Below are positions 1,640 to 14,227 of a DNA stretch of 64,000 nt, in pieces. The translations under genes were made by a program, and so were the position numbers. Below the pieces are notes generated by a model, which searched no databases, had not been told where the DNA came from, and saw only the letters and a program-made list of their open reading frames with translations. Source of the stretch: an uncultured Bacilli bacterium. Its GTDB lineage: Bacteria > Bacillota_I > Bacilli_A > RF39 > UBA660. How positions within the stretch are numbered: position 1 is the first letter of the stretch; each line of letters starts with the position of its first letter. The stretch is from positions 652 through 64,651 of the forward strand of contig CALVJQ010000002.1 of the NCBI GenBank assembly GCA_944332265.1, in the 5' to 3' direction.

Positions 1640-2089
1640 TTAATTTTTCTTAACTAATAGTTGTCCAGATTGGAGATATATTGTATCGTTAGTATTTAAT
1701 AATTCTAATGGTCTTTGATTAAATTTTTGAGCTACTATATCTAAGGTATCTCCTTCTTTTGTTACATAATAACTATAATTACTTTTAGGAATTAGAATTT
1801 CTTGATTAGGATAGATATAATCTTGACTGTTTAAACCATTTAATAAAGCTAATAACTCAGGATTAATATTATATTGGCGAGCTATTTCATATAGGGTGTC
1901 TCCTTTTTTGATTGTATAGTATTCAAAGTATTGTTCTTTATTAATTGGAACTATTATTTCTTTACCTGCTCTTAGCATATCAGGAAAAGGAATATTATTT
2001 AATTCTAAAATAATATTTTCTTTAGTATGAAATTTTTCAGCAATAGTAGTTAAACTATCTCCTTGTTGTATTAGGTATTTATCGTACAT
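1640..2089 (-). CDS. LysM-repeat protein (3 LysM domains)
   Basis: Three repeats of the LysM signature (YxVKKGDTLxxIAxxY...LxxLN) in 149 aa; SD AGGAGTGA upstream. Confidence 0.75.
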   Translation of the reverse strand: MYDKYLIQQGDSLTTIAEKFHTKENIILELNNIPFPDMLRAGKEIIVPINKEQYFEYYTIKKGDTLYEIARQYNINPELLALLNGLNSQDYIYPNQEILIPKSNYSYYVTKEGDTLDIVAQKFNQRPLELLNTNDTIYLQSGQLLVKKN

Positions 2090-2115
2090 AAAATCACTCC
2101 TAATATAACATATGT

Positions 2116-3270
2116 TTATTTTTCTGTTTGGTCATTAATAAAGATTAAATTTTTATTATTTCGTTGCCATTCTTCATAAGAAATAAGTTTTGTTTCTCCA
2201 TATTTTAAATTATACTTATATAATGTATCATTTACTAAATAATATACTTCATCATTATTAACATGAATAATAGAAGATATTTTTTGATTAGATATTTTAG
2301 TTTTAATATTATAATCTAAATATGTTAAGTATAAGGTATTATTTTTTAATTCATAATGATAGTTGTTAGGATATTTAAATTGATAATCTTTAGATATAAG
2401 TTTATTTAAAGTTATTTTTTCAGAATGATTATTATTATATATAATTCCTTGTTTATTTGAAGAACCTACAATACGCATTTTTTCACGATGAGGTACTAAT
2501 TCATATTCTATTTTATTCTTACGATCAACTATATAAAGAGATTTGTCATGATATCCTAAAATATAACTATCAAATGATATATCATATTTTAATTTCCATT
2601 CTTTTAATTCAAGGGTATTCATATTTAAAATATATACTTTATTAAATGAGTGTTTTTGTTCATAATCAGGAATAACTATATATTCATTTACTCTTGAAGC
2701 TAGAGGAATATCATATATATCATTATCAAATATTTTAATAAATTCTCTAGTAGAGTTGTTAATATAGGTAAATCCTTTATAAGACCAGATGAATATTTTG
2801 TTTGCTGTATTATATAGTTGATAATTTTCATATGTATCTTCTTTTATAGTTGAATTTTCTAAATATTTAGTTATTTTTTCTTTTACTTGACCTTCAACTA
2901 AGTGAGCATCAATTAGTTTATCTTGATAACTACATAAAGGTTTGGTAGTAATGTAATCACTTTTAATAAGAAGACATGTATAATCATCTGCTTCATATTT
3001 AGTAATGTCTTTTATTAGTTTATTTTCTTTTATATATTTACTATTATAAATTAAATTATATGTTATATCGTTATATACTATTTCATAATAAAACACTTGA
3101 TTTTTATCGTCATAGTTTTCACTTATTTTATATTCATTTAAATTATATTCATAACTATAAGATTTTGTTTTAAATAAAGAAAGAATAAATAAAATTATGG
3201 CTATTAAAATAATTAGGAATAAACACATTATGATAATAGCACTTTTTTTAAGTTTGTACTTTTTCTTCAT
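2116..3270 (-). CDS. membrane-anchored hypothetical protein (N-terminal signal-anchor, Tyr/Asn-rich extracellular domain)
   Basis: 384-aa ORF with a good SD (AGGAG), a hydrophobic segment after the N-terminal K-rich stretch, and no recognisable catalytic motif. Confidence 0.5.
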   Translation of the reverse strand: MKKKYKLKKSAIIIMCLFLIILIAIILFILSLFKTKSYSYEYNLNEYKISENYDDKNQVFYYEIVYNDITYNLIYNSKYIKENKLIKDITKYEADDYTCLLIKSDYITTKPLCSYQDKLIDAHLVEGQVKEKITKYLENSTIKEDTYENYQLYNTANKIFIWSYKGFTYINNSTREFIKIFDNDIYDIPLASRVNEYIVIPDYEQKHSFNKVYILNMNTLELKEWKLKYDISFDSYILGYHDKSLYIVDRKNKIEYELVPHREKMRIVGSSNKQGIIYNNNHSEKITLNKLISKDYQFKYPNNYHYELKNNTLYLTYLDYNIKTKISNQKISSIIHVNNDEVYYLVNDTLYKYNLKYGETKLISYEEWQRNNKNLIFINDQTEK

Positions 3271-3289
3271 AATATACTCCTATAATAAA

Positions 3290-3739
3290 TTACTCTATAT
3301 CGTTTGTACGAGCAGCATATTTTTGTTTTTGTTCCATCATATTACTAGTTATAGCGTTTTCTATCTCTGGTAAACTTTTTTTATCTAAGTCGGAAAAGAA
3401 GACTCTTTCTTTTACGGTATCAATTGTAACACGACCAAATAGAAGACCACTATAAGCAGTTAAATCATTAAACATATCAGGAGTAATGGAGATTAAAGTA
3501 TATCCGGTAATAATATGATCTTGCCCTATTAATAGTCTTTTATTAGTAACTGTTAAAACTGCTGTTGAAAAGAAATCAAAGACATCTGGAGTTTTTTGAC
3601 CAGCAAAAGAATATAAAGGTTCTTCATCAGAAGCTAGATGTTCTTCAACTACTTTTGAATGTTTGCGTAAACGCCACCAAGTAATTGTTCCTGGATATTT
3701 TGCTTTAAACATACATACTTGATCATATACTTTTCCCAT
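3290..3739 (-). CDS. small cytoplasmic protein, bacterial PH (bPH_2/YdbT-like) domain candidate
   Basis: 149 aa with SD AGGTGA; the central 'TNKRLLIG' and surrounding beta-rich pattern resemble bPH_2 proteins. Family assignment is from memory. Confidence 0.4.
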   Translation of the reverse strand: MGKVYDQVCMFKAKYPGTITWWRLRKHSKVVEEHLASDEEPLYSFAGQKTPDVFDFFSTAVLTVTNKRLLIGQDHIITGYTLISITPDMFNDLTAYSGLLFGRVTIDTVKERVFFSDLDKKSLPEIENAITSNMMEQKQKYAARTNDIE

Positions 3740-3741
3740 AT

Positions 3742-4263
3742 TTACTCACCTAATCCTTCTACTATTTTATTTAATTTATCATTTGTGAATGTTGTAATAG
3801 ATAATATTTGATTATTACTTACACTTAGTATATAGTTTGTTTCTAGGGATGATAAACGTTCATCTAGTTCATAAAATGCTATAGTATTTTTTTTAGATAA
3901 TTTATTTATTTCTAAAAGATAAATTTTAGTATTTTTATAGTAAGCTATTTTATTAATCATTTCTATAAATTTATCGTGAGTATTTGTTGTATTATCTAAA
4001 ATAGCAATTGTTGTTATATCTTCATCTTTATATAATTTTTTGAATTTTTTATAACTAATTGTTGCATAATATTTTTTATTATCTTGATAATCTTCATCTG
4101 TTTCTCTAAATAATATTTCTTGAGTTATTTTATCTTCTTTATTAGCTTTATTATATATAGAGATAAAATAGATATTAGAAATAATTAATACTATTATTAT
4201 ACAGATAAATAGAATTATTACTTTGTTATTATTTGGTTTTTTGTTTTGTTTTTTTTTACTCAT
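3742..4263 (-). CDS. small membrane-anchored hypothetical protein
   Basis: The ORF track starts at GTG 4272, but AGGTGG overlaps that codon; the ATG at 4263 with a 5-nt spacer is the likely start. K-rich N-terminus followed by one TM helix. Confidence 0.45.
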   Translation of the reverse strand: MSKKKQNKKPNNNKVIILFICIIIVLIISNIYFISIYNKANKEDKITQEILFRETDEDYQDNKKYYATISYKKFKKLYKDEDITTIAILDNTTNTHDKFIEMINKIAYYKNTKIYLLEINKLSKKNTIAFYELDERLSSLETNYILSVSNNQILSITTFTNDKLNKIVEGLGE

Positions 4264-4333
4264 AAAAACCACCTGCTATATATGTTTATTTTATAATGTT
4301 TTATTTATTAATGCAATAAAAAGGAAACTATTA

Positions 4334-5632
4334 CTAGTTTCCAAAAGTTAATAATACATAAGCTATACCTATTCCAATACCACAAATTAATGATACAGCA
4401 GCGATTAGAATAGCAGCAGTGGCAAAACCTTGACTTTTTTTCTCTTCTTCGACAACTAATTTGATATCCTCTTGTTCTAATTGTTTCTTTTTTTCTTTTA
4501 GTAACTCTGGATGATCTTTAGGGTTAATTGGATATTTCTTTTGAATTAAGTCTAATTTAGTTGTTACACGAACGTTGATACTTTGAGTCGCCATTGTTCT
4601 TTCTACTTTATTTGTTTTTTCTTCTTTAGCTAATTTAGATTCTTTTTCTTTTTGTAATTTAGCAATATCTTGAATATTTTTAACAATGTCATTTTCTAAT
4701 ATAGAAGCATTTTTTAAATCTGTATTATTATAAATTATTCTAATAACAGCATCTATATATAATTTTTTAGCATCATTAATAGCTTCGCTCATTTTTCTTA
4801 TTTCAGGATAGAATCTTTCAAATAAGGTATTTATTAAAGCGGTTTTATTTACTAGTTTATTATTTAATATATATTCATTATCGCCAACTAAATTATCTTT
4901 ATCTATACTATTAGTTACAGAGATTGGGCTTAAATAAGCATCAGACCAAACTGGCTTTTTATATTCATTTTGTTTGCTAATTAAACAATAATCTAAACCA
5001 CGATATTTGCGACCAACAATATAATCGAATAGAATCATACGAAGATATTTTTTTTCAATTGCTCTTTTAACTTTAGTATCGATAGATGTACCAGTTTGAA
5101 GTTCAATTTCTTTAATTAAAGCATATAACCCTAGTTTAATAATATCTTCTATAGTATCATGACTTTTAATACCATTTCCTTTAGTATATATTGGTATTTC
5201 TAAAACATTAGTTAACCAAGTAGCATCTTTTTCAGGAATTACACCATTATTTAAATATGTTAGCATATGGTTAATAACGGTTGTAGCAGATATTCTTGTC
5301 TCAATATCTTTACTATAATTTAATAAGGTAAAGACTCCGATATTTTGATCTTCTGTTACTATTCTTTTACTTTCTTCGTGATCAACATCAAATAATTCGG
5401 CAATGTCTGATTTTATAATATCATAATCATCTATATACATTGTATCAGGGTTTAAACTATTTGATTTAAAAACACCAAATACATTATTATTTAATTGAAC
5501 TAGTTGTGAGCCATCTTTAAAGTTGTTAAAAACTTCCATCGTTATTGGTTCTTCGCGACGGATACCATTATCTAAGGATACTATATATTTTTGTTCAGGT
5601 TGAATATTTGTTTCAGAATAATTTTTCTCCAT
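4334..5632 (-). CDS. tail-anchored hypothetical protein (large cytoplasmic domain, C-terminal TM helix)
   Basis: 432-aa ORF with SD AGGAG 8 nt upstream. The only hydrophobic helix is at the extreme C-terminus (GFATAAILIAAVSLICGIGIGIAYVLL), preceded by a K/E-rich coiled segment. Confidence 0.5.
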   Translation of the reverse strand: MEKNYSETNIQPEQKYIVSLDNGIRREEPITMEVFNNFKDGSQLVQLNNNVFGVFKSNSLNPDTMYIDDYDIIKSDIAELFDVDHEESKRIVTEDQNIGVFTLLNYSKDIETRISATTVINHMLTYLNNGVIPEKDATWLTNVLEIPIYTKGNGIKSHDTIEDIIKLGLYALIKEIELQTGTSIDTKVKRAIEKKYLRMILFDYIVGRKYRGLDYCLISKQNEYKKPVWSDAYLSPISVTNSIDKDNLVGDNEYILNNKLVNKTALINTLFERFYPEIRKMSEAINDAKKLYIDAVIRIIYNNTDLKNASILENDIVKNIQDIAKLQKEKESKLAKEEKTNKVERTMATQSINVRVTTKLDLIQKKYPINPKDHPELLKEKKKQLEQEDIKLVVEEEKKSQGFATAAILIAAVSLICGIGIGIAYVLLTFGN

Positions 5633-5968: not shown

Positions 5969-6670
5969 ATGAATCAAGAAAAATTTGGACAAGTTATTAA
6001 AGAGATAAGAAAAAAGCATAATTTAACACAAAGTCAATTAGCACAAAAATATAATGTTACTTATCAAGCTGTAAGTAAATGGGAAAATGGTTTGAATATG
6101 CCTGATACTGGATTAATAAAACAAATTAGTAAAGATTTTAATATTAGTTTAGAAGAACTATTAGATGGTGAATATAAAGAAAAGGCAGAACATCCTAAAA
6201 CATTTAAATGGTTATTACTATTAATTCCACTTATAATTTTAATTATTATAGGAATAATATTATTAGTTGTAAAACTTAACGATGATTTTAAATTTAAAAC
6301 TTTATCTTCTTCTAGTAATTTTTTTAATATATCTGGGAGTATTGCTTATAATGAAAGTAAATCTGCTATATATATTACTAATATTGAATATAGTGGAGAG
6401 GAAGATGATACTTTATATAAAGATATAGAATGTAGTTTATTTGAATCAGACAATAACGTAGATGTGAAAATAAGTTCTTTTTCTTCTAATAAAGAAAATA
6501 TTAAATTAGATGAATTTTTAAAAGAAGTTACTTTATCTGTTGATGACTATGAAAAAAATTGTGATGAATATAATGATAATAGTTTATATTTAACAATTAA
6601 TGCAACTGATAAAAATGATAAAATTACAACTTATAAAATTCCTTTAACAATGGATAGCTGTGCTACTTAA
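5969..6670 (+). CDS. membrane-anchored XRE-family (HTH_3) transcriptional regulator with extracellular C-terminal domain
   Basis: N-terminal HTH 'LTQSQLAQKYNVTYQAVSKWENG', then a TM helix (WLLLLIPLIILIIIGIILLVV), then a roughly 130-aa extracytoplasmic domain. A TTACAA-16-TATAAT promoter and an SD are upstream. Confidence 0.7.
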   Translation: MNQEKFGQVIKEIRKKHNLTQSQLAQKYNVTYQAVSKWENGLNMPDTGLIKQISKDFNISLEELLDGEYKEKAEHPKTFKWLLLLIPLIILIIIGIILLVVKLNDDFKFKTLSSSSNFFNISGSIAYNESKSAIYITNIEYSGEEDDTLYKDIECSLFESDNNVDVKISSFSSNKENIKLDEFLKEVTLSVDDYEKNCDEYNDNSLYLTINATDKNDKITTYKIPLTMDSCAT

Positions 6671-6771: not shown

Positions 6772-8736
6772 ATGAAAAAGAAAAAAATATTATTGGGACT
6801 GGGAGTTTTAATTATTGTAATACTCTTAGTAATTGGAGGATTTTGGATAGGAAAAAATAAGTTAAATAAAGAAGAAGTTAATCAAGTTAAAAGTATGATT
6901 GCTTTACAAAGTGAAAAAGAAAAGGATTTTAAAATTGATGGTTATACAATTGATGAACCTAATGTTATTTTGAATCCTTATGGCAATTCGCCATTAACAG
7001 CATTAATAATGTTTGAAACTGATAAGGAGGTTGAAGTAACAGTTACTATAAAAGGTGATGATAAATTATCAACTTTTACACATACTTTTGCTAAAGAAAA
7101 AGAGCATTATTTACCTATTTATGGTTTATATGCTGATAGAAAAAATAAAGTTATAATTGAATATGAAGATGATAATCAAGAAATTAAAAAGGAAATAGAA
7201 ATTAAAACTGATAAATTACCTTCTAATATGGCTTTGCCAACGGAAGTAGATGCTAAAAAAAGTAAATTAACTAACGAATTATATTTCTTTACACCATCTA
7301 GTAGTGGGTATACTATGGCATATGATGTAAATGGTGATGTTAGATGGTATTTTACTAATTATGCATTATGGAAAATAGACAGATTAGAAAATGGAAATCT
7401 TTTAGTTAGTACGGAAAGATTAGTTAATAGTCCATATTATATGACAGGATTATATGAAATGGATTTATTAGGTAAGATATATAATGAATATAGTCTTCCT
7501 GGGGGATATCACCATGATTATTATGAAATGGAAAATGGAAATCTTTTAGTTGCAAGTGATGACTTTAATAACGAAAGTGGTACTGTAGAAGATTATATTG
7601 TTGAATTAGATAGGAAAACTGGAGAAATAGTAAAAACATTTGATTTAAAAGATGTTTTAAAGATGACAGATGGTAAAAGTGAAAACTGGTCTGATTATGA
7701 TTGGTTTCATAATAATTCAGTTTGGTATGATAAAAAAACTAATTCTATTACCTTGTCAGGTCGTCATCAAGATGCTGTTATTAATTTAGACTATGATACA
7801 GGAAAATTAAATTGGATTATTGGTGATTCAACTAATTGGAGTGAAGAATATCAAAAGTATTTCTTTACACCTGTTGGCGACGACTTTGAATGGCAATGGA
7901 GTCAACATGCGGCAATGATTACTCCAGAAGGATATGTATTTATCTTAGATAACGGTAATAATAAATCAAAAATTAAAGAAGAATATGTTGATGCTTCTAA
8001 TAGTTATACTAGAGGAGTTATGTATAAGATAGATACTGATAAAATGACAATTGAACAAGTATGGGAATATGGTAAAGAAAGAGGAAGTGAATTTTATTCT
8101 CCATACATATCTGATGTTGATTATTTAGATAAGGATCATTATATAGTTCATTCTGGTGGTATAGTATTTGTAGATGGTAAAAATTCTAATCAACCTGCGG
8201 GATTTAGTAAAGGTGCTGAATTATTATCTGATACAGTAGAAATTATTGATGATGAAGTAGTTTTTGAAATAAAATTACCAACAAATAATTATCGTGTTGA
8301 AAAAATGAGTTTATATACTGATGATAATAATTTTAAATTGGGTGAAGCAAACAGAATTGGTTCACTTGGTGAAACAAAGAAAGATGATAAAAAATTAACA
8401 TTTAATTTATTTACTAAAAAAATCGATGATACTTATAAAAAACATGATATTAGTATTGATAAAGAGGTTGATCGTTTAGTAGTTAAAGGTCAATTTAAAA
8501 GAACTGATTCAGTTAATATTGTATTATATAAAGGAATAACTGCTAATTATTATAACCTACGAGTAAGTAAAAAACCATATACTGCTTTATGTGTTGATAT
8601 TTTTACAGAAGAAGAGACTAAAAATGGAATTGTTGTTACTAAGTATATTAATAATGATGGTTTAAAAGGTAAGTATGCTGTATATATTGAAATAAATGGA
8701 ACATTATATAATACTAATGAATATGTTGAATTTTAA
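6772..8736 (+). CDS. signal-anchored beta-propeller protein, arylsulfotransferase (ASST)-like
   Basis: 654 aa with an N-terminal TM helix; repeated 'ENGNLLV' and 'GGYHHDYY' and Trp-rich propeller-like repeats recalled from the ASST family. Not verified by search. Confidence 0.45.
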   Translation: MKKKKILLGLGVLIIVILLVIGGFWIGKNKLNKEEVNQVKSMIALQSEKEKDFKIDGYTIDEPNVILNPYGNSPLTALIMFETDKEVEVTVTIKGDDKLSTFTHTFAKEKEHYLPIYGLYADRKNKVIIEYEDDNQEIKKEIEIKTDKLPSNMALPTEVDAKKSKLTNELYFFTPSSSGYTMAYDVNGDVRWYFTNYALWKIDRLENGNLLVSTERLVNSPYYMTGLYEMDLLGKIYNEYSLPGGYHHDYYEMENGNLLVASDDFNNESGTVEDYIVELDRKTGEIVKTFDLKDVLKMTDGKSENWSDYDWFHNNSVWYDKKTNSITLSGRHQDAVINLDYDTGKLNWIIGDSTNWSEEYQKYFFTPVGDDFEWQWSQHAAMITPEGYVFILDNGNNKSKIKEEYVDASNSYTRGVMYKIDTDKMTIEQVWEYGKERGSEFYSPYISDVDYLDKDHYIVHSGGIVFVDGKNSNQPAGFSKGAELLSDTVEIIDDEVVFEIKLPTNNYRVEKMSLYTDDNNFKLGEANRIGSLGETKKDDKKLTFNLFTKKIDDTYKKHDISIDKEVDRLVVKGQFKRTDSVNIVLYKGITANYYNLRVSKKPYTALCVDIFTEEETKNGIVVTKYINNDGLKGKYAVYIEINGTLYNTNEYVEF

Positions 8737-8825: not shown

Positions 8826-8900
8826 TGGTGCCGACTGCCGGATTTGAACCAGCGACCTACGCGTTACGAGGGCGTTGCACTACCACTGTGCTAAGTCGGC
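8826..8900 (-). tRNA. tRNA-Thr (anticodon CGU), CCA encoded
   Basis: Reverse complement folds as a cloverleaf: acceptor GCCGACT/AGTCGGC, D-arm GCAC-AGTGGTA-GTGC, anticodon loop CUCGUAA, T-arm GCTGG-TTCAAAT-CCGGC, discriminator A, then CCA. There is one C-C mismatch at 31-39. Confidence 0.85.
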
Positions 8901-8967
8901 TTATATAAATTATACACTTTTTTTTAAAATAGTGGTATACTTTTATAAATAATAGGAGTTGATTTTT

Positions 8968-9993
8968 GTGAAATGTGTTTCCTTAAAAGGTAAAAAGAAA
9001 CTAGAAGTTTCGACTATTAATAATGCAAAGTCTAAAGATGGTAGTGTTGTTATTGATATTAAGAAAACAGGAATTTGTGGTTCTGATATTCATTATTGGG
9101 ATATGGGAATGCCTGATGGATTAGTAATGGGACATGAGTTTTGTGGAGTAGTAACTGACCCTGGGTCACGTAAAGATTTAAAAATTGGAGATCGTGTAAC
9201 AGGTTTACCTATTTCGCCTTGTGGAAAGTGTCCTGCTTGCTTAAGTGGAAATCCACAATATTGTCCTGATACTTGGACATATGCTGTTGGGTTGTCTTTA
9301 ACTAACCCTGGTGGTTATGCTGAGGCAACTGCCGTAAGACCCGATTTAGTTATTAAGGTTCCTAGTAATATTACTGATTCTGAAGTTGCGATGGTAGAAC
9401 CAACTGCTGTTGGGTTGCATGCTGTTAATTTAGCTGATATTAAAATAGGTTCTAAAGTTTTAGTTATTGGAGCGGGAATTATAGGCGATATATGTGCTAT
9501 GTTTGCTAAAATGAATGGAGCTTCTTATGTAGCTATATCTGAAACTAATGAAAAACGTGGTAAAAAAGCAGTTACATTAAAGTGTGCTGATGAATACTTT
9601 TATGCTCATGATGAAAAGTTTATGGAAAATGTTAGAAGAGAGTGTCCTTTTGGATATGATGTAGTATTTGATTGTTCAGGGAATAGTGCAGCTGTTTCAA
9701 CTGCCCTTGCTTGTGTTAAACCAAATGGAACTGTAGTTATGGTTGGAGTTTCAATGGAAAGTATTACTATTCCTTCTGTTTTATTAGTTATGCATGAATT
9801 AAAAGTATATGGAGCTATTGGATATACATATGATGAATTTAAAGAATGTATTGATTTAATGTCTACACGTAAAATTGATATGTTGAAATTTGTTGATGAT
9901 ATAGTTGGATTAGATGGCGTACAAAATGCTTTTGAGAGATTGACTTCCGGCGAAGATAATGCTATTAAAATTTTAATTGACCCAAATAAATAA
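8968..9993 (+). CDS. Zn-dependent alcohol/polyol dehydrogenase (MDR family, sorbitol/threonine dehydrogenase-like)
   Basis: 'GICGSDIHYW' and 'GHEFCGVV' catalytic-zinc motifs, a structural-zinc Cys cluster (CGKCPACLSGNPQYC) and a 'GAGIIG' Rossmann motif. GTG 8968 sits 10 nt after AGGAG, which is better than the track's TTG 8959. Confidence 0.8.
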   Translation: MKCVSLKGKKKLEVSTINNAKSKDGSVVIDIKKTGICGSDIHYWDMGMPDGLVMGHEFCGVVTDPGSRKDLKIGDRVTGLPISPCGKCPACLSGNPQYCPDTWTYAVGLSLTNPGGYAEATAVRPDLVIKVPSNITDSEVAMVEPTAVGLHAVNLADIKIGSKVLVIGAGIIGDICAMFAKMNGASYVAISETNEKRGKKAVTLKCADEYFYAHDEKFMENVRRECPFGYDVVFDCSGNSAAVSTALACVKPNGTVVMVGVSMESITIPSVLLVMHELKVYGAIGYTYDEFKECIDLMSTRKIDMLKFVDDIVGLDGVQNAFERLTSGEDNAIKILIDPNK

Positions 9994-9996
9994 AAA

Positions 9997-10053
9997 CCAC
10001 ATAGTGGTTTTTTTATTTTAAAAAAAAGAGATTACCTAGTTAAAAGTAATCTT
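9997..10053. terminator. terminators: ACCAC-ATA-GTGGT hairpin plus T-run (plus strand, for adh) and AGATTAC/GTAATCT hairpin followed by T8 on the minus strand (for tmRNA)
   Basis: Both hairpins read in the sequence. Confidence 0.45.
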
Positions 10054-10095: not shown

Positions 10096-10461
10096 TGGTG
10101 GAGCAGAGGAGAATCGAACTCCTGTCCAAACTACTCTGTTATATAACGTCTACAAGTTTAGTTAGATTTATAATTTCATTAAGAAGACGGCTATAACGTA
10201 CCTATTTCTTAACTATCCTAAAAAAGATTCATTATTAGATCTTAGGATATCTAATAATATAATCTATATATATTAACCCTTAATTTATCCTATAGATGAA
10301 AATAAATAAGAGTGCTTCTTAACCTTCTATTAGGCAAATGCTAAAGCATTTGAAGCGAAATTATATGACTCTTTGTCATTTTATTTTAATTGTGAATTTT
10401 AGGTAATTCCTACCACTTGCAGTCATACACAGACATAATCTGTCGAAACCTGGTCTGCCCC
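10096..10461 (-). ncRNA. ssrA: tmRNA (ssrA), about 366 nt
   Basis: Minus-strand 5' end GGGGCAGACCAGGTTTCGACAG and 3' tRNA-like end GGACAGGAGTTCGATTCTCCTCTGCTCCACCA. An internal tag frame GAC AAA GAG TCA TAT AAT TTC GCT TCA AAT GCT TTA GCA TTT GCC TAA TAG reads (D)KESYNFASNALAFA**. Confidence 0.85.
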
Positions 10462-10514
10462 GTGTAGTTAATTATATCATATTTTTTTATTTTTAGAAAA
10501 ATTTAGATGCTTTT

Positions 10515-10545
10515 TTGACAATTTTTTGTCATATAGTGTTATAAT
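10515..10545 (+). promoter_or_regulatory. sigma-A-type promoter (TTGACA ... TGtTATAAT) with a perfect palindrome TGACAATTTTTTGTCA overlapping the -35
   Basis: Read in the sequence. The spacer is 19 nt, compensated by an extended -10 (TG). It lies 130 nt upstream of the J-like gene. Confidence 0.4.
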
Positions 10546-10677
10546 TTTCTTAATTAAATATTTTATATTTTGATTGGCATTTATCCTATATATAAAGATA
10601 AGGTTGACTTTTTAAGTGTTATATGGTAGTGTAAGTGACGAAAAGGAGAAAATGTTTTATTAAGGGGGGTAATACTA

Positions 10678-12020
10678 TGAATTATTATGATATTTTAAAC
10701 ATTCAAACAGATGCTACTTCAGATGAGATAAAAGTAGCTTTAGAGAATTACGAAAATCAACTTTATGAAGATCGAATTAATGATAAAATCTCAGCACAAG
10801 AATTCAATGATTTAATTGATGAATTCGAAGAAATAAAAAAGGTTTTACTTAATGATGATCTTCGCCAAGAATATGACAAAAAATTTGCTAAACGTAAAAG
10901 GCAAAATACTGGTAAAGGTAAGAAAAAAACGGGAGCCGTTGTTGCAGGAGCCGTGGCAGCATCACTTATAGTAGCAGCTTTAATTGGAACTAATGCAGAT
11001 AAAATATCTACACTATTTAGAAGTACAGGAGGAGATGTTACAGTTTCTCAAGATGTAAATCAAGAAAATAACGATTACACATCAGGTAATACTAGTACAG
11101 GAGAAACTGCTGAAGCAGAAGATAATATAGAAGTTTTAGAAGAAACTCCTGAACCTATTAATTATGGGGATATTAATGATGATGCTTTAGTAACTGAAAG
11201 AGCTACAACTTTAGTTAATCAATTAAATGATATGGGAATTATTAATCCTTCTACTGGAACAGCTTATACTGTTGAAGAAATAAAGACATTAATTTTATAT
11301 ATTAATGGTGTATATACACCTACTACATTAGAAGAAATCGATGTTTTACATTTAAATCTATTAAATCTTTTGATTTCTCCATTAAATGTTGATCCATATT
11401 TATACCATGTTGTATATGCATCAGGAAATGATGATTTTAAAGATATGGTAAATCCTGAAGCGATTAAACCAATTGATTTTGGTTCAGCATTGGCTGAATA
11501 TGGAACTAATGGGGTTTATCCATTAACTGAGTGGATTCAACAAAAACGTGAAGATATATTTAAAGCTACTGATAGAGAGACTATTAATAGTATATATGTT
11601 GAAGTTGGACAAGTAATGGCAGACATTATGAAAGGTAATGGATGTACAATTAAAGTTGATGATGTTGAATATACTTATACAAGTGAACAAATTCTTGCTA
11701 ATCATGCATCAGCTATGCTTCTTACTACGGAAGCACAATTAATATTTGCTAACCATTATGAGGTAAGAGATATAAATGATAATGTTATTGATTCAGTTCA
11801 AACTACTTGGGAAGTTTATAACAAATTTAATGGTGATGAACCTGATCATGTTACATTAGATGAAATTCAAGCTTGGATTAATAATGGTTGTGATTATGAA
11901 TGGGGTATCGATGATGTTTTAATTAACGGTCAAACATTCGGACAAAGAATTCAAGGGGATTTGGAAGGCATGGCACAAAATAACTATGCAATGTCATCTG
12001 GTAAAACACTTTCTAAGTAA
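10678..12020 (+). CDS. bitopic membrane protein with N-terminal degenerate J-domain (HPD replaced by YED) and large extracytoplasmic domain
   Basis: ATG at 10678 after AAGGGGGG. Residues 1-70 align with the DnaJ J-domain (YYDILNI...DEIK...YD) but have 'LYEDRIN' where 'YHPDRN' is expected. A TM helix GAVVAGAVAASLIVAALIG follows, then about 330 aa of acidic extracellular sequence. Confidence 0.6.
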
Positions 12021-12043
12021 ATATAGGTAGGAGGTTATAAGTT

Positions 12044-14227
12044 ATGTACGATAATGATAATGTTACTTACAAAGTTGGAATTAACTGGAAAGATATTATA
12101 ATTAAAGTAATAATTTTAGCTTTATTTATCTTACTTCTTTTATGGCTATTTCCTAAGGCTAATTTAGATGTTTTCTATGATTCAATTTATTCAGAAAACA
12201 TTAAAACAATGAAAGATGCTGCAAGAAACTATTATACTGTTGATAGACTTCCAGCAAATGTTGGCGATCAAACATCAATGACATTAAAAGAAATGATTGA
12301 TAATAAAATGTTAATCAGATTTACCGATAAAGATGGTCAAACTTGTGATGAGACTACTAGTAAAGTTGAAGTTACAAAGATTGCTGATGATGAATATACT
12401 TTAAAAGTACAATTAAATTGTGGTGAACAACAAGATTATATATTAGAAACTATTGGTTGTACTACTGTATGTTCTAATGGTACTTGTACAACTGTAATCA
12501 ATAATGGTGATAATTCTAGTACTATTGCTAACAACAATAATAATCAATCTAATAATACAACTGGTATATCTAATGATGATTCAGTAACTGAAAGAGTTGA
12601 TTCTGATGGTACTGAAACTGGTAGTGTTAAAGATGATATTTATACAGTAAAAACGATACTATATCAACATAAAAAAGCAATTGTAACTACGAAGACTGTT
12701 TATACTTGCCCTAGTGGTTACACAAAGAATGGTACTAAATGTATTAAGAAAACTACTGGTGCTACAATCGATGCTACTCCTGTATACAATCCTGATCAAG
12801 TTATAACTACGGACGCTAAATATAATTATACTGGCGACTATACTGTTAGTGCTGATCCAATTAAGAAAGAAGTTGGAACCGATTATACTTGTCCTTCTGG
12901 TTATACATTAAATGGAGCATATTGTATAAAATATACTAACGCAACAGAACATAAAGGTGAAACTACTTATACTTGTCCTTCTGGTTATACTAAGAATGGT
13001 ACAAAATGTGTTAAGACTTATGATGCTACAAAGAAAACTGGCAGTGGATCTTATAGTTGTCCTAGTGGTGGAACTTTAAGTGGTTCTAAGTGTACAATAA
13101 CTTCTAATGCTTCTGCTAGTACAAGTTATACTTGTCCTTCTGGTTATACAAAAAATGGAACAAGTTGTTATAAAGTATATACGGCATCTGGAAGTACTAC
13201 TTATAGTTGTCCTTCTGGTTATACAAGAAGTGGTTCTACTTGTTCTAAAACTACTTCAGTAGCAGCTACTGCTCATACTTCATATGGTGGATGGGTAAAT
13301 CAAGGAACTAAGTATTATACTTCATCTTCTAAAGCATATACTGGTACTACTTCTAAATTAGTATTACAAGGTGCTATTTCTGGAGCTACTTGTGGTTCTC
13401 CTTGTGGAAATAAAGGTATATGGTATAAATATATTTACTATACTAGAAGTCAATCTACTTCATATACTTGTCCTTCTGGTTATTCAAGAAGTGGTTCTAC
13501 ATGTTATAAGACAACAACTATTTCTGCAACTGCTAATACTAAATATAGTTGTCCTAGTGGAGGATCTTTAAGTGGAAATAAATGTACAATAACTTCTAGT
13601 GCTACTGCTAATACTACTTATAGTTGTCCTTCTGGATATTCAAAGAATGGTACTAAATGTACTAAAACATATAATGCAACTTATAATTCTGGTTCAACAA
13701 GTTATACTTGTCCTAATGGTGGAACTTTATCTGGTACGAAATGTACAATAACTAAGGATGCTACTGCTTCAACTGGTCAAACAACATATACTTGTCCTTC
13801 TGGATATACATATAATTCAAGTACTAAGAAATGTGAAATGAAAATAAGTGCTACTGCAACTAAGAAATATAGTTATAGTTGCCCTACTGGATATACAGCT
13901 TCTGGTGAAGGAGAAAATATGAAATGTACTAAAACTGTTAAAGGAGAAAACAAATACTATTGTGAAGATAGTGATGCAGTTTTAAATGGTACTAAGTGTA
14001 TTAAAACTGTTAAGGGTGATATTAAGAATTATACTTGTCCTAATGGCTATACATTAAGTGGAGAGAAATGTATAAAACAAACAACTGTTACTATAGATGC
14101 TACTGTAAGTACTAAGAAATCTACATCTTATCAATATAAATGGAGTGAGAAATCTTATTTAGAAGGTTGGACATTTACTGGTAAGACTAAGACTTCAACA
14201 AAAACTTATACAGCTGGTCAAAGATAA
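12044..14227 (+). CDS. signal-anchored surface protein with about 14 tandem Cys-pair repeats ([ST]Y[ST]CP[SN]G[YG][ST]x[NS]G[ST]xC[TIVY]K)
   Basis: Strong SD (GGTAGGAGG) 24 nt after the upstream stop, an N-terminal TM helix, and a repeat unit of 24-30 aa with exactly two Cys; Thr/Ser/Lys-rich. Confidence 0.6.
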   Translation: MYDNDNVTYKVGINWKDIIIKVIILALFILLLLWLFPKANLDVFYDSIYSENIKTMKDAARNYYTVDRLPANVGDQTSMTLKEMIDNKMLIRFTDKDGQTCDETTSKVEVTKIADDEYTLKVQLNCGEQQDYILETIGCTTVCSNGTCTTVINNGDNSSTIANNNNNQSNNTTGISNDDSVTERVDSDGTETGSVKDDIYTVKTILYQHKKAIVTTKTVYTCPSGYTKNGTKCIKKTTGATIDATPVYNPDQVITTDAKYNYTGDYTVSADPIKKEVGTDYTCPSGYTLNGAYCIKYTNATEHKGETTYTCPSGYTKNGTKCVKTYDATKKTGSGSYSCPSGGTLSGSKCTITSNASASTSYTCPSGYTKNGTSCYKVYTASGSTTYSCPSGYTRSGSTCSKTTSVAATAHTSYGGWVNQGTKYYTSSSKAYTGTTSKLVLQGAISGATCGSPCGNKGIWYKYIYYTRSQSTSYTCPSGYSRSGSTCYKTTTISATANTKYSCPSGGSLSGNKCTITSSATANTTYSCPSGYSKNGTKCTKTYNATYNSGSTSYTCPNGGTLSGTKCTITKDATASTGQTTYTCPSGYTYNSSTKKCEMKISATATKKYSYSCPTGYTASGEGENMKCTKTVKGENKYYCEDSDAVLNGTKCIKTVKGDIKNYTCPNGYTLSGEKCIKQTTVTIDATVSTKKSTSYQYKWSEKSYLEGWTFTGKTKTSTKTYTAGQR
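12690..14080 (+). repeat. imperfect tandem coding repeats, about 14 units of 72-90 bp, two alternating subtypes
   Basis: Recurrent 'ACTTGTCCTTCTGGTTATAC' and 'AGTTGTCCTAGTGGTGGAAC' DNA cores, seen directly in the sequence. Confidence 0.6.

What the first reader, a model, noticed from the sequence alone, without database searches (positions are those of the whole stretch)
10678..12020. Membrane-tethered J-like domain with the catalytic HPD motif replaced by YED
Residues 1-70 align convincingly with the DnaJ J-domain (helices I-IV: YYDILNI..DEIK..A...Y....YD), but the invariant His-Pro-Asp that stimulates Hsp70 ATPase is Tyr-Glu-Asp. This is the same kind of degeneration seen in eukaryotic Pam16/Tim16 J-like proteins, which regulate rather than stimulate Hsp70. 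A bacterial membrane-anchored J-like protein with an HPD-less domain and a 330-residue extracytoplasmic domain is not a standard DjlA/DjlB/DjlC architecture.
Basis: partly seen in the sequence, partly recalled or inferred. Interest (0 to 1): 0.55.

Follow-up and report, generated by a model that had tools for sequence, protein, structure and literature searches.

The report
Membrane protein with a dead J-domain
This gene from an uncultured gut bacterium encodes a membrane protein whose inner end looks like a DnaJ chaperone domain but has lost the residues needed to switch on Hsp70; the loss is ancient and maintained, and the protein always comes paired with a cysteine-repeat surface protein next to the tmRNA gene.

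Summary
A single TM helix and a 288-residue folded ectodomain follow. The loss is not an artefact: none of about 100 homologs, down to about 25% identity, has HPD. Four of the five basic DnaK-contact residues are also replaced by acidic or neutral ones, and helix II is charge-reversed. Within the species the domain is as constrained as the ectodomain. It is therefore a maintained pseudo-J domain (a "type IV JDP"), very unlikely to stimulate Hsp70. The Pam16 analogy is untested and is not the closest one. ARC6/Ftn2/ZipN (HPD-less J-like domain, TM helix, extracytoplasmic domain) is a nearer precedent, although there is no homology beyond the J-fold. New context: the gene forms a bicistronic unit with a 727-aa Cys-repeat membrane protein in 13 of 13 loci of its own family. 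Four more distant loci place a different HPD-less J-like membrane protein, plus a third bitopic protein, upstream of the same partner. In 15 of 15 loci the unit sits divergently next to ssrA. The ectodomain has no Pfam, PDB or BFVD match. Best reading: a non-chaperone J-fold adaptor on a dedicated membrane partner of a surface protein. Function is inferred, not shown.

The parts
10096..10461 (-). ssrA (tmRNA) gene, divergent from the J-like gene and conserved at this position in 15 of 15 related loci
   Evidence: Rfam RF00023, 123.5 bits, E=1e-49, full-length model. Same arrangement in 14 other loci. ARAGORN misses it.
10471..10479 (-). Invariant ATTATAnCA, which reads TGnTATAAT on the minus strand: a likely extended -10 of ssrA, about 10 nt upstream of the tmRNA 5' end
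   Evidence: Invariant columns in the 11-locus alignment A6. Promoter function is inferred.
10515..10545 (+). P1, a conserved promoter-like element: TTGACA (10515-10520) and TG-T-TATAAT (-10 hexamer 10540-10545); spacer 19 nt here, 17-18 nt in most relatives
   Evidence: TTGAC and TAnAAT are invariant or nearly invariant in A6. The consensus scan did not list it because the spacer exceeds 18 nt. Function is inferred.
10604..10632 (+). P2, a second conserved promoter-like element: TTGACT (10604-10609), 17 nt, then TG-n-TAGTGT (10624-10632)
   Evidence: Invariant TTGA..TT and TG.TA...TA columns in A6. Function is inferred.
10663..10670 (+). Shine-Dalgarno sequence AAGGGGGG, 6 nt before the ATG
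   Evidence: Sequence read. GGGG is invariant in A6.
10677..12020 (+). CDS of the J-like bitopic membrane protein (447 aa plus stop)
   Evidence: Identical protein P0001 is present on many gut metagenome contigs.
10677..10892 (+). Cytoplasmic pseudo-J domain (residues 1-72; model helices 3-7, 15-34, 40-58, 60-77), net charge -10
   Evidence: Pfam and NCBIfam, AF2, Foldseek, charge.
10764..10772 (+). Codons TAT GAA GAT = Tyr30-Glu31-Asp32, occupying the HPD position; in the model they lie inside an extended helix II (residues 15-34) and not in an apical loop
   Evidence: Alignments; DSSP of the model; codons read.
10878..10988 (+). Basic juxtamembrane stretch (residues 68-85) and the single TM helix (residues 86-104)
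   Evidence: Hydropathy scan. The positive-inside rule gives an N-in orientation (inference).
10989..11153 (+). Extracytoplasmic low-complexity, disordered linker (residues 105-159)
   Evidence: pLDDT about 30. Most polymorphic part within the species: the linker/TM segment (residues 73-159) has 18.4% polymorphic sites.
11154..12017 (+). Conserved ectodomain 'A' (residues 160-447), mostly helical with a small sheet; no known family or fold match
   Evidence: AF2 pLDDT above 90. No credible Foldseek match in PDB or BFVD. No Pfam or PDB profile match. Only 56 cluster representatives among 1.84 billion proteins.
12044..14227 (+). Partner CDS (727 aa): conserved 16-residue cytoplasmic tail, TM helix (residues 17-37), membrane-proximal alpha/beta domain (about 40-137), Asn/Ser-rich linker, 12 clear two-Cys repeats Y[TS]CP[SN]G[YG]..G..C (residues 218-680), 35 Cys in total
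   Evidence: Adjacent to the J-like gene in 13 of 13 type A loci. Weak cEGF and TraN hits only. Family of more than 1,361 proteins.
9992..10012 (.). Bidirectional terminator-like hairpin that closes the upstream ADH gene and lies 3' of ssrA; it marks the left edge of the block
   Evidence: No terminator-like site in the 23-nt gap between the J-like gene and the partner (12021-12043).

Best explanation
The gene encodes an N-in/C-out bitopic membrane protein. Its cytoplasmic head keeps the J-domain fold but has lost the means to activate Hsp70: HPD is gone and the basic docking face is charge-reversed. The head is therefore a pseudo-J domain (a 'type IV JDP') that has been kept as a protein-protein interaction or scaffolding module, not as a co-chaperone. 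The protein works as the dedicated membrane partner of the co-transcribed Cys-repeat surface protein. Most likely, its conserved ectodomain binds the partner's highly conserved membrane-proximal domain outside the cell, and the acidic J-fold links the complex to some cytoplasmic component. Shown here: the J-fold; loss of HPD and of 4 of 5 basic contact residues; ancient, family-wide loss; purifying constraint within the species; obligatory gene pairing; chromosomal core location next to ssrA. Inferred: no Hsp70 stimulation; physical interaction of the two proteins; an adaptor role for the J-fold.
For: (1) J-fold: Pfam full-length match at 30.2 bits, above the 27.8 gathering score, on the isolated domain; NCBIfam; AF2 plus Foldseek probability about 1 to solved J-domains. 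(2) Catalytic determinants lost: Y30-E31-D32 at the HPD position. DnaJ R22/K26/R27/K48/K51, the electrostatic contacts in the DnaJ-DnaK crystal (PMC8215388), correspond to K19/E23/N24/D48/E51. Helix II net charge is -3 here and -2.4 on average in the family, against +2 to +6 in four canonical J-domains. Even conservative HPD substitutions abolish ATPase stimulation in every system tested (PMC8215388, PMC13254874). (3) The loss is ancestral and maintained: 0 His and 0 Pro at the HPD columns in 58 sequences; none of about 100 family members has HPD in the J-like domain; the four type B loci, with unrelated ectodomains, also have HPD-less J-like domains. (4) The domain is not decaying: polymorphic-site density among 50 within-species variants is 5.6% in the J-like domain, 6.2% in the ectodomain and 18.4% in the linker/TM; fold-core residues (YYxxLG, A, L, RxxYD) persist; some relatives have duplicated the domain in tandem. 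(5) Partnership: the J-like gene and the Cys-repeat gene are 12-26 nt apart in 13 of 13 type A loci, even where the J-like proteins are only 28-32% identical. There is no terminator between them. Four of four more distant partner homologs also have an HPD-less J-like bitopic gene upstream. (6) The ectodomain is not enzyme-like: across the wide family only Tyr197 and Cys405 are invariant, and the near-invariant positions are Gly, Asn, Pro, Thr, Tyr, Gln and Ala. (7) Precedent: the ARC6 J-like domain (PPQ instead of HPD) does not bind chloroplast Hsp70s and instead binds the ARC3 MORN domain (bioRxiv 10.1101/2024.01.08.574726). J-folds also serve as structural subunits, for example mL77 and NDH subunit U, which appeared among the PDB matches.
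Against: The J-like domain evolves fast between genera: 60% identity against 90% for the ectodomain with the nearest genus, and dN/dS 0.30 against 0.09, about the same as the linker. A few family members lack the domain entirely while keeping the partner and the ssrA context (P0139/L013 and L021). So it is dispensable in some lineages and could be only weakly functional. The partner's cytoplasmic tail is equally conserved in the J-less loci, so the J-fold probably does not act through that tail. Absence of HPD does not strictly exclude engaging Hsp70: ICP22 and a de novo designed J-analogue both lack HPD yet recruit or stimulate Hsc70 (PMC13254874). The function of the partner is itself unknown.
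Confidence: 0.5

Rival explanations
1. A Pam16-like or 'recruiter' pseudo-JDP. The J-like domain still engages the Hsp70 system without stimulating it. It might pair with the J-domain of the cell's real DnaJ, or hold DnaK at the membrane, to regulate or concentrate chaperone activity where the large Cys-rich partner is inserted or exported.
For: The J-fold is retained and constrained within the species. Pam16 is a documented HPD-less J-domain that binds Pam18, and competition or recruitment roles for pseudo-JDPs are openly discussed (PMC13254874). Asp32 and Lys19 (equivalent to DnaJ D35 and R22) survive in this species. The co-transcribed partner is a 727-aa, 35-Cys protein that might plausibly need help in biogenesis.
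Against: The basic helix II/III face that docks on DnaK is charge-reversed across the family, and Asp at the third HPD position is kept in only 7 of 58 members. There is no Pam16-family profile match. No J-protein, dnaK or grpE gene lies in the operon or the window. J-less family members exist with the same partner. The ARC6 J-like domain, the nearest architectural analogue, does not bind Hsp70 (bioRxiv 10.1101/2024.01.08.574726).
Confidence: 0.2
2. A transmembrane signalling or tethering device of the anti-sigma or ZipN type. The ectodomain, together with the partner, senses or positions something at the envelope. The cytoplasmic J-fold sequesters or recruits a specific cytoplasmic protein such as a regulator, a cytoskeletal protein or a division protein.
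For: The layout, a small cytoplasmic N-domain, one TM helix and a large ectodomain, is typical of anti-sigma factors and of ZipN/ARC6. ZipN is an FtsZ membrane tether with an N-terminal DnaJ-type domain (PMC6391411). Type B loci have three co-transcribed bitopic proteins, which recalls divisome-like subcomplexes. The block has a core-genome position and near-consensus promoters.
Against: No sigma factor or regulator gene is consistently linked. The XRE-type HTH genes nearby are not conserved in position. The DUF4179 hit is only E=0.13 and covers the TM region. ZipN and ARC6 have a cytoplasmic FtsZ-binding region of about 500 residues between the J-like domain and the TM helix (PMC6391411); here only about 13 residues separate them. 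There is no sequence homology to ARC6/ZipN beyond the J-fold.
Confidence: 0.15
3. A vestigial domain. The ancestor was a functional membrane JDP, and the J-domain is now an evolutionary leftover that only supplies a soluble, charged N-terminal cap for correct N-in topology. All function resides in the ectodomain and the partner.
For: Fast divergence between genera, with dN/dS equal to that of the disordered linker. Several clades have also lost the helix IV RxxYD motif. J-less members exist. The review literature leaves 'accidents of evolution' open (PMC13254874).
Against: An HPD-less J-fold has been retained across lineages so divergent that the ectodomain family differs. Within-species constraint equals that of the ectodomain and is three times tighter than the linker. 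Fold-core residues are conserved and the domain is confidently folded. Some members carry tandem duplications of the domain. No family member with an intact HPD was found that could stand for the supposed functional ancestor.
Confidence: 0.12
4. Still a functional Hsp70 co-chaperone that uses a non-canonical motif (YED) with a co-evolved DnaK.
For: Asp32 is retained. A de novo designed J-analogue without HPD can stimulate Hsc70 (PMC13254874).
Against: The tripeptide is not conserved within the family (Y/F/I/A, then anything, then L/E/K/Q/D), so no alternative motif is under selection. Four of five basic contacts are lost. H-to-Q and D-to-N changes alone abolish activity in every natural system tested (PMC8215388).
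Confidence: 0.03

Closest known systems
ARC6 (plant chloroplast) / Ftn2 = ZipN (cyanobacteria)
   Same: N-terminal J-like domain without HPD (PPQ in ARC6), a single TM helix and a C-terminal extracytoplasmic domain that pairs with another bitopic protein (PDV2 in plants). The ARC6 J-like domain does not bind Hsp70 and acts as a protein-interaction module (bioRxiv 10.1101/2024.01.08.574726; PMC6391411).
   Different: No sequence or profile similarity outside the J-fold. ZipN and ARC6 have a cytoplasmic FtsZ-binding region of about 500 residues before the TM helix (TM at about 608-630 of 798 in Anabaena ZipN); here the TM helix follows the J-fold after about 13 residues. The phylum differs (Bacillota against Cyanobacteria). 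There is no evidence here for a role in division.
   Same: A recognisable J-domain with a non-conservatively replaced HPD (DKE or DKS) that cannot stimulate Hsp70. It is membrane-associated and maintained by selection (PMC13254874).
   Different: [quoted passage not shown] No J-protein is encoded in this operon or window. No Pam16 profile matches. From general knowledge, the Pam16 J-like domain is C-terminal and the protein has no large domain on the far side of the membrane.
Type IV JDPs / pseudo-JDPs / DNAJD proteins (operational class)
   Same: It meets the definition: a clearly recognisable J-domain with HPD non-conservatively replaced (PMC13254874; Pulido and Leister 2018 as cited in PMC6391411).
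   Different: The class is defined by what is missing, not by common descent or mechanism. Described members are almost all eukaryotic or cyanobacterial. The large JDP census discarded HPD-less sequences before analysis (PMC10410713).
E. coli membrane JDPs DjlA, DjlB and DjlC
   Same: Bacterial inner-membrane proteins with a cytoplasmic J-type domain (PMC8215388).
   Different: From general knowledge, DjlA has an N-terminal TM helix and a C-terminal J-domain with an intact HPD. [quoted passage not shown] None has a large ectodomain and none has lost the motif.
J-folds used as structural subunits (mitoribosomal mL77, chloroplast NDH subunit U, ciliate complex I J-subunits)
   Same: These came up as sequence or structure matches to the N-terminal domain. 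They show that the J-fold can be recruited as a plain structural or interaction module.
   Different: They are eukaryotic organellar complexes with unrelated partners. Their HPD status was not examined here.
TraN (F-type conjugation) and cEGF-like repeats, for the partner protein only
   Same: Cys-rich short repeats. Weak NCBIfam TraN hit (E=1e-6, 27.7 bits against a cutoff of 796) and faint cEGF hits. One JGI homolog is labelled TraN.
   Different: The score is far below the family cutoff and the hit covers only the repeats. There are no conjugation genes nearby, no plasmid or phage matches, and the location is the core chromosome. The TraN label is an annotation artefact.

Membership tests
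Functional J-domain protein (Hsp70 co-chaperone, Pfam PF00226) | Four-helix J-domain fold of about 63-70 residues | tested here: met
   Pfam profile 1-63 of 63 matched, 30.2 bits on the isolated domain against a gathering score of 27.8. AF2 pLDDT about 88. Foldseek probability 0.97-1.0 and target TM-score about 0.7 to solved J-domains.
Functional J-domain protein (Hsp70 co-chaperone, Pfam PF00226) | His-Pro-Asp tripeptide in the loop between helices II and III | tested here: not met
   Tyr30-Glu31-Asp32 at that position. 0 His and 0 Pro in 58 family members. In the model the tripeptide lies inside an extended helix II.
Functional J-domain protein (Hsp70 co-chaperone, Pfam PF00226) | Basic face of helices II and III that docks on the acidic Hsp70 NBD/SBD-beta (DnaJ R22, K26, R27, K48, K51; PMC8215388) | tested here: not met
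   The equivalents are K19, E23, N24, D48, E51. Helix II net charge is -3, against +2 to +6 in canonical domains.
Functional J-domain protein (Hsp70 co-chaperone, Pfam PF00226) | Stimulates the ATPase of a partner Hsp70 | not testable with these tools
   This needs a biochemical assay with purified residues 1-80 and DnaK.
Type IV JDP / pseudo-JDP / J-like (DNAJD) protein | Clearly recognisable J-domain | tested here: met
Type IV JDP / pseudo-JDP / J-like (DNAJD) protein | HPD non-conservatively replaced, as a stable feature of the orthologous group and not a one-off mutation | tested here: met
   (the whole family). (49 of 50 strain variants have YED, one has YEE). (type B loci).
Pam16/Tim16 | Sequence membership of the Pam16 family | tested here: not met
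   Pfam scans at E up to 10 list only PF00226 among J-type families for this protein.
Pam16/Tim16 | Acts as a heterodimer with a functional J-protein (Pam18) | not testable with these tools
   No interaction assay or complex prediction was available. No candidate J-protein gene lies in the operon, and no 'Y[HY]PD' J-signature or Hsp70 signature occurs anywhere in the 64-kb window.
ARC6 / Ftn2 / ZipN | N-terminal HPD-less J-like domain, a single TM helix and a C-terminal extracytoplasmic domain | tested here: met
   The definition comes from bioRxiv 10.1101/2024.01.08.574726 and PMC6391411.
ARC6 / Ftn2 / ZipN | Homology of the non-J regions, including the long cytoplasmic FtsZ-binding region | tested here: not met
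   No Pfam or NCBIfam hit outside the J-domain. Only about 13 residues lie between the J-fold and the TM helix, against about 540 in Anabaena ZipN (PMC6391411).
ARC6 / Ftn2 / ZipN | Tethers FtsZ and localises to the division site | not testable with these tools
   This needs localisation and interaction experiments.
DjlA / DjlB / DjlC membrane JDPs | DjlA: N-terminal TM helix and C-terminal HPD J-domain. DjlB/DjlC: tail-anchored with a functional HPE | tested here: not met
   Here the J-like domain is N-terminal, the motif is YED, and a 343-residue external region follows the TM helix. Definitions from PMC8215388 and PMC13254874.
TraN mating-pair stabilisation protein (partner gene only) | Scores above the NCBIfam family cutoff and sits in a conjugative transfer gene context | tested here: not met
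   27.7 bits against a cutoff of 796. No tra genes nearby. No plasmid match.

The most novel reading that the evidence does not exclude
The block ssrA, pseudo-J bitopic protein (plus a second bitopic protein in type B loci) and Cys-repeat surface protein could be a lineage-defining envelope machine of uncultured gut Bacilli. In this reading a positively maintained pseudo-J domain is the cytoplasmic adaptor of a trans-envelope complex, functionally parallel to ZipN/ARC6-PDV2, for example positioning or organising a surface or division structure. It may be co-regulated with trans-translation through the shared divergent promoter region. That would make it the first non-cyanobacterial bacterial example showing that HPD loss in a J-domain is selected and not accidental.
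Probability: 0.15. Interest if true: 0.7.

Novelty: new variant of a known kind. Interest (0 to 1): 0.42.

Why it matters
The J-domain field has an explicitly open question: are HPD-less 'type IV' JDPs accidents of evolution or selected, and do they compete with, recruit or ignore Hsp70 (PMC13254874)? Large surveys removed such sequences before analysis (PMC10410713), so bacterial examples are barely catalogued. This family is a clean bacterial test case. The loss is ancestral. It comes with reversal of the docking-face charge. The domain is retained across lineages in which even the attached ectodomain has been exchanged, and it is constrained within a species. The family also flags an uncharacterised, abundant, core-genome gene pair (or trio) of human and animal gut Bacilli that contains two domains with no structural relatives found, plus an unexplained strict linkage to the tmRNA gene. 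The limits are that everything functional is inferred, the organisms are uncultured, and HPD-less J-like membrane proteins as a kind are already known (ARC6/ZipN, Pam16).

Tried and rejected
(1) Sequencing artefact or pseudogene: rejected. The identical protein occurs on many independent contigs, and the loss is family-wide.

(2) Chance resemblance to a J-domain: rejected.

(4) Partner N-domain as a type IV pilin or pseudopilin (TM helix, long helix, then a 4-stranded sheet): not supported. There are no pilins among the Foldseek hits and all probabilities are 0.6 or below. There is also no prepilin G-F-T-L-I-E motif.

(5) Partner tail 'TYKVGINW' as a KxYKxGKxW signal peptide (a lead recalled from memory): not supported by NCBIfam or Pfam, even on the isolated 45 residues.

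(6) TraN or conjugation: rejected.

(7) Phage or defence origin: no phage or PADLOC match. The PHROG 14336 hit (E=1.6e-7) covers only the J-domain and TM region.

(8) Riboswitch or leader RNA in the '660-nt leader': rejected. The space is occupied by ssrA.

(9) Type B ectodomains as remote homologs, or a split version, of ectodomain A: hhalign probability 1% or less.

(10) Anti-sigma factor: the DUF4179 hit is E=0.13 over the TM region only, and no sigma gene is linked.

(11) dN/dS for distant pairs: synonymous sites are saturated, so only the WIN-L001 pair was used.

(12) Word-index homolog search with the partner's first 149 residues: it returned only fragments and no names.
Full report
**Observation**

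A strong Shine-Dalgarno sequence (AAGGGGGG, 10663-10670) precedes it. Both the SD and the start are conserved in orthologous loci, so the upstream in-frame GTG at 10635 listed is not the start.

Pfam's DnaJ model matches residues 2-67 over the whole profile (1-63 of 63). The isolated domain scores 30.2 bits (E=5e-7, gathering score 27.8) and the full protein 25.3 bits. NCBIfam DnaJ_bact gives E=5e-8.

An AlphaFold2 model built on 59 homologs has pLDDT about 86-92 over residues 1-77. Foldseek matches that part to solved J-domains at probability 0.97-1.0, target TM-score about 0.7, rmsd 2.2-3 A over about 67 residues. The J-fold is therefore real.

HMMER alignments to solved J-domains and a MAFFT alignment with four canonical J-domains place Tyr30-Glu31-Asp32 (nt 10764-10772) opposite His-Pro-Asp.

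Hydropathy gives one TM helix at residues 86-104, preceded by a very basic stretch (residues 68-85), so the protein is N-in/C-out. The external part is a disordered linker of about 55 residues plus a confidently folded 288-residue domain (160-447).

**More than HPD is lost**

In the DnaJ-DnaK co-crystal, the electrostatic contacts are DnaJ R22, K26, R27, K48 and K51, and H33, P34 and D35 contact the DnaK linker, SBD-beta and R167/Q378. H-to-Q or D-to-N changes abolish ATPase stimulation in every system tested (PMC8215388; PMC13254874).

- The equivalent residues here are K19, E23, N24, D48 and E51.
- Helix II has a net charge of -3, against +2 to +6 in four canonical domains.
- The whole domain has a net charge of -10.
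- In the model, helix II (residues 15-34) runs through the YED position, so there is no apical loop there.

**Is the loss conserved?**

Yes. A word-index search found 115 homologs. An exhaustive HMMER scan of 1.84 billion representatives with the ectodomain found only 56 clusters.

- In 58 aligned members (38-98% identity) the three HPD columns hold 0 His, 0 Pro and 7 Asp. Tyr or Phe replaces His in 34.
- No J-like domain of any member, down to about 25% identity, contains HPD.
- Family helix II charge averages -2.4.
- Several clades have also lost the helix IV RxxYD motif.
- Some distant members carry two tandem J-like domains.
- A few have none, only a signal anchor.

**Is the domain decaying?**

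Among 50 near-identical within-species variants, polymorphic-site density is 5.6% in the J-like domain, 6.2% in the ectodomain and 18.4% in the linker/TM. YED is present in 49 of 50.

Between genera the J-like domain diverges fast. Against the nearest genus it is 60% identical, compared with 90% for the ectodomain, and dN/dS is 0.30 against 0.09. More distant pairs are saturated.

So the domain is maintained but evolves in a lineage-specific way. That is what one expects of an interaction module. It is not what one expects of a co-chaperone that must fit the highly conserved DnaK.

**Genomic context**

The gene is followed after 23 nt, with no terminator, by a 727-aa protein. That partner has:
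- a 16-residue cytoplasmic tail;
- a TM helix (residues 17-37);
- a membrane-proximal alpha/beta domain (about 40-137, pLDDT about 90);
- an Asn/Ser-rich linker;
- 12 clear two-Cys repeats Y[TS]CP[SN]G[YG]..G..C, with 35 Cys in total.

The pair is adjacent (12-26 nt apart) in 13 of 13 loci of this family. That includes loci whose J-like proteins are only 28-32% identical, and two loci whose upstream protein lacks the J-like domain. The partner's first 140 or so residues are far better conserved than the J-like protein.

The partner family is large, with more than 1,361 hits, all unnamed apart from one spurious 'TraN' label.

Four more distant partner homologs (about 40% identity) sit in three-gene loci: an HPD-less J-like domain with a TM helix and a different ectodomain, then a second bitopic protein, then the partner. 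Those ectodomains show no detectable homology to the window's ectodomain (hhalign probability 1% or less). The invariant theme is therefore an HPD-less J-fold on a bitopic protein encoded upstream of the Cys-repeat protein.

**An unexpected regularity: ssrA**

The apparent 660-nt leader is mostly the tmRNA gene ssrA on the opposite strand (10096-10461; Rfam 123.5 bits, E=1e-49). ARAGORN missed it.

ssrA lies divergently and immediately upstream of the J-like gene, or of its J-less relative, in 15 of 15 loci examined. The spacer is 207-244 nt in type A loci and 112-153 nt in type B loci. The genes beyond ssrA and beyond the partner differ among loci.

The shared intergenic region contains:
- an invariant element next to ssrA that reads TGnTATAAT on the minus strand;
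- two conserved plus-strand promoter-like elements, P1 at 10515-10545 and P2 at 10604-10632.

Nothing similar exists in the phage or plasmid collections or in PADLOC. This is a vertically inherited core-genome block of uncultured gut Bacilli, found in MAGs labelled Candidatus Coprovivens, 'Bacilli bacterium' and 'Erysipelotrichaceae'. I cannot explain the ssrA linkage. It could reflect co-regulation, or synteny frozen by overlapping divergent promoters.

**The ectodomain**

Across the wide family only Tyr197 and Cys405 are invariant. The near-invariant positions are Gly, Asn, Pro, Thr, Tyr, Gln and Ala. There is no conserved acid/base/nucleophile set, which argues for a binding or scaffold domain and against an enzyme.

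**Mechanism proposed**

This is a bitopic membrane protein with a cytoplasmic pseudo-J domain that no longer activates Hsp70. That step is strongly inferred from sequence and literature. The domain is retained as an interaction module. The protein functions with the co-transcribed Cys-repeat surface protein. The gene linkage is shown. Physical contact, most plausibly ectodomain to membrane-proximal domain, is inferred. Confidence is about 0.5 for the whole statement. It is higher, about 0.85, for 'not an Hsp70 ATPase stimulator', and about 0.8 for 'works with the partner'.

Rivals:
- a Pam16-like or recruiter role toward the Hsp70 system (0.2);
- an anti-sigma or ZipN-like signalling or tethering device (0.15);
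- a vestigial domain (0.12);
- a still-functional non-canonical co-chaperone (0.03).

**Comparison with the known**

By definition the protein is a type IV JDP, also called a pseudo-JDP or DNAJD protein (PMC13254874).

The nearest architectural precedent is ARC6/Ftn2/ZipN: an N-terminal J-like domain without HPD, one TM helix and an extracytoplasmic C-terminal domain. The ARC6 J-like domain does not bind Hsp70 and instead binds another protein (bioRxiv 10.1101/2024.01.08.574726; PMC6391411). Homology is limited to the J-fold, and the long FtsZ-binding region is absent, so this protein is not a member of that family.

Pam16 shares only the dead J-domain. DjlA, DjlB and DjlC differ in domain order, motif and lack of an ectodomain.

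I rate the finding a new variant of a known kind. HPD-less membrane J-like proteins are known. This family, its ectodomain, its obligatory partner and its ssrA linkage are undescribed as far as the libraries and literature searched here show.

**Verdict**

Interest is moderate (0.42). It is a clean, evolutionarily maintained bacterial pseudo-J domain within an uncharacterised conserved envelope gene block. It bears on an open question in the JDP field, but there is no functional evidence and the hosts are uncultured.

Noticed in passing
window 10096-10461 (- strand): A full-length tmRNA gene (ssrA; Rfam RF00023, 123.5 bits) that ARAGORN did not report, either on the whole window or on the 560-nt sub-region.
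   Followed up: yes
window 10096-14227; L001-L005, L007, L009, L010, L013, L019-L022, L024: ssrA is divergently adjacent to the J-like/partner operon in 15 of 15 loci (spacer 112-244 nt), although the outer flanks vary, the ectodomain family is exchanged in some loci, and the J-like domain is absent in two. No explanation found.
   Followed up: partly
window 10471-10479, 10515-10545, 10604-10632: The ssrA/J-like intergenic region has an invariant minus-strand TGnTATAAT next to ssrA and two conserved plus-strand promoter-like elements in tandem (P1 near-consensus; P2 with an extended -10). Why there are two is unknown.
   Followed up: partly
window 1640-5632 (- strand): 4334-5632, 3742-4272, 3290-3739, 2116-3270, 1640-2089: A minus-strand set of uncharacterised genes (432 aa; 176 aa; a 149-aa bacterial PH domain protein, bPH_3; 384 aa), followed in the window by a LysM protein, recurs in the same order on the far side of ssrA in L004, L009, L010, L013 and L021. 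It may be part of the same conserved neighbourhood.
   Followed up: partly
L019 4641-9139, L020 4670-9094, L022 2412-6806, L024 2864-7570: A three-gene variant of the locus: an HPD-less J-like domain with a TM helix and a different ectodomain, then a second bitopic protein of 304-350 aa, then the Cys-repeat partner. The two extra ectodomain families also have no Pfam match on record.
   Followed up: partly
proteins P0122, P0123, P0128, P0131, P0134, P0150, P0082: Distant family members carry two tandem HPD-less J-like domains before the TM helix. P0139, P0140, P0149, P0155 and the L021 upstream protein have none.
   Followed up: partly
window 12044-14227: The partner has an odd number of cysteines (35), as do most of the full-length orthologs examined (31-43). 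The J-like protein's ectodomain has one invariant Cys (Cys405). An intermolecular disulfide is conceivable but untested.
   Followed up: no
window 5969-6670 (+): An XRE-type HTH protein with a TM helix and an extracellular C-terminal domain, that is, a membrane-bound transcription regulator. HTH_3 genes also occur near the block in L007/L008 and L021, but not at a conserved position.
   Followed up: partly
window 6772-8736 (+), 8826-8900 (-), 8959-9993 (+): An arylsulfotransferase (ASST family, E=2e-101) with an N-terminal signal anchor, a tRNA-Thr(CGT) gene and a Zn-dependent alcohol dehydrogenase lie between the conserved minus-strand gene set and ssrA. The ADH and tRNA also flank ssrA in L010.
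   Followed up: no
protein P0269; window 12044-14227: One JGI homolog of the partner is annotated 'conjugal transfer mating pair stabilization protein TraN'. This rests on the Cys-rich repeats only (27.7 bits against a cutoff of 796) and is a misannotation.
   Followed up: yes
protein P0114: A 467-aa protein matches the query at 77% identity over 33% of its length but carries PF03477 and PF13597 domains. It is probably a chimeric gene call or a misassembly.
   Followed up: no
L002 15234-15438, L005 15345-15549, L007 17084-17283: T-box leaders upstream of pheS, downstream of the block. This is expected for Bacillota pheST and shows that these loci are ordinary chromosomal regions.
   Followed up: no
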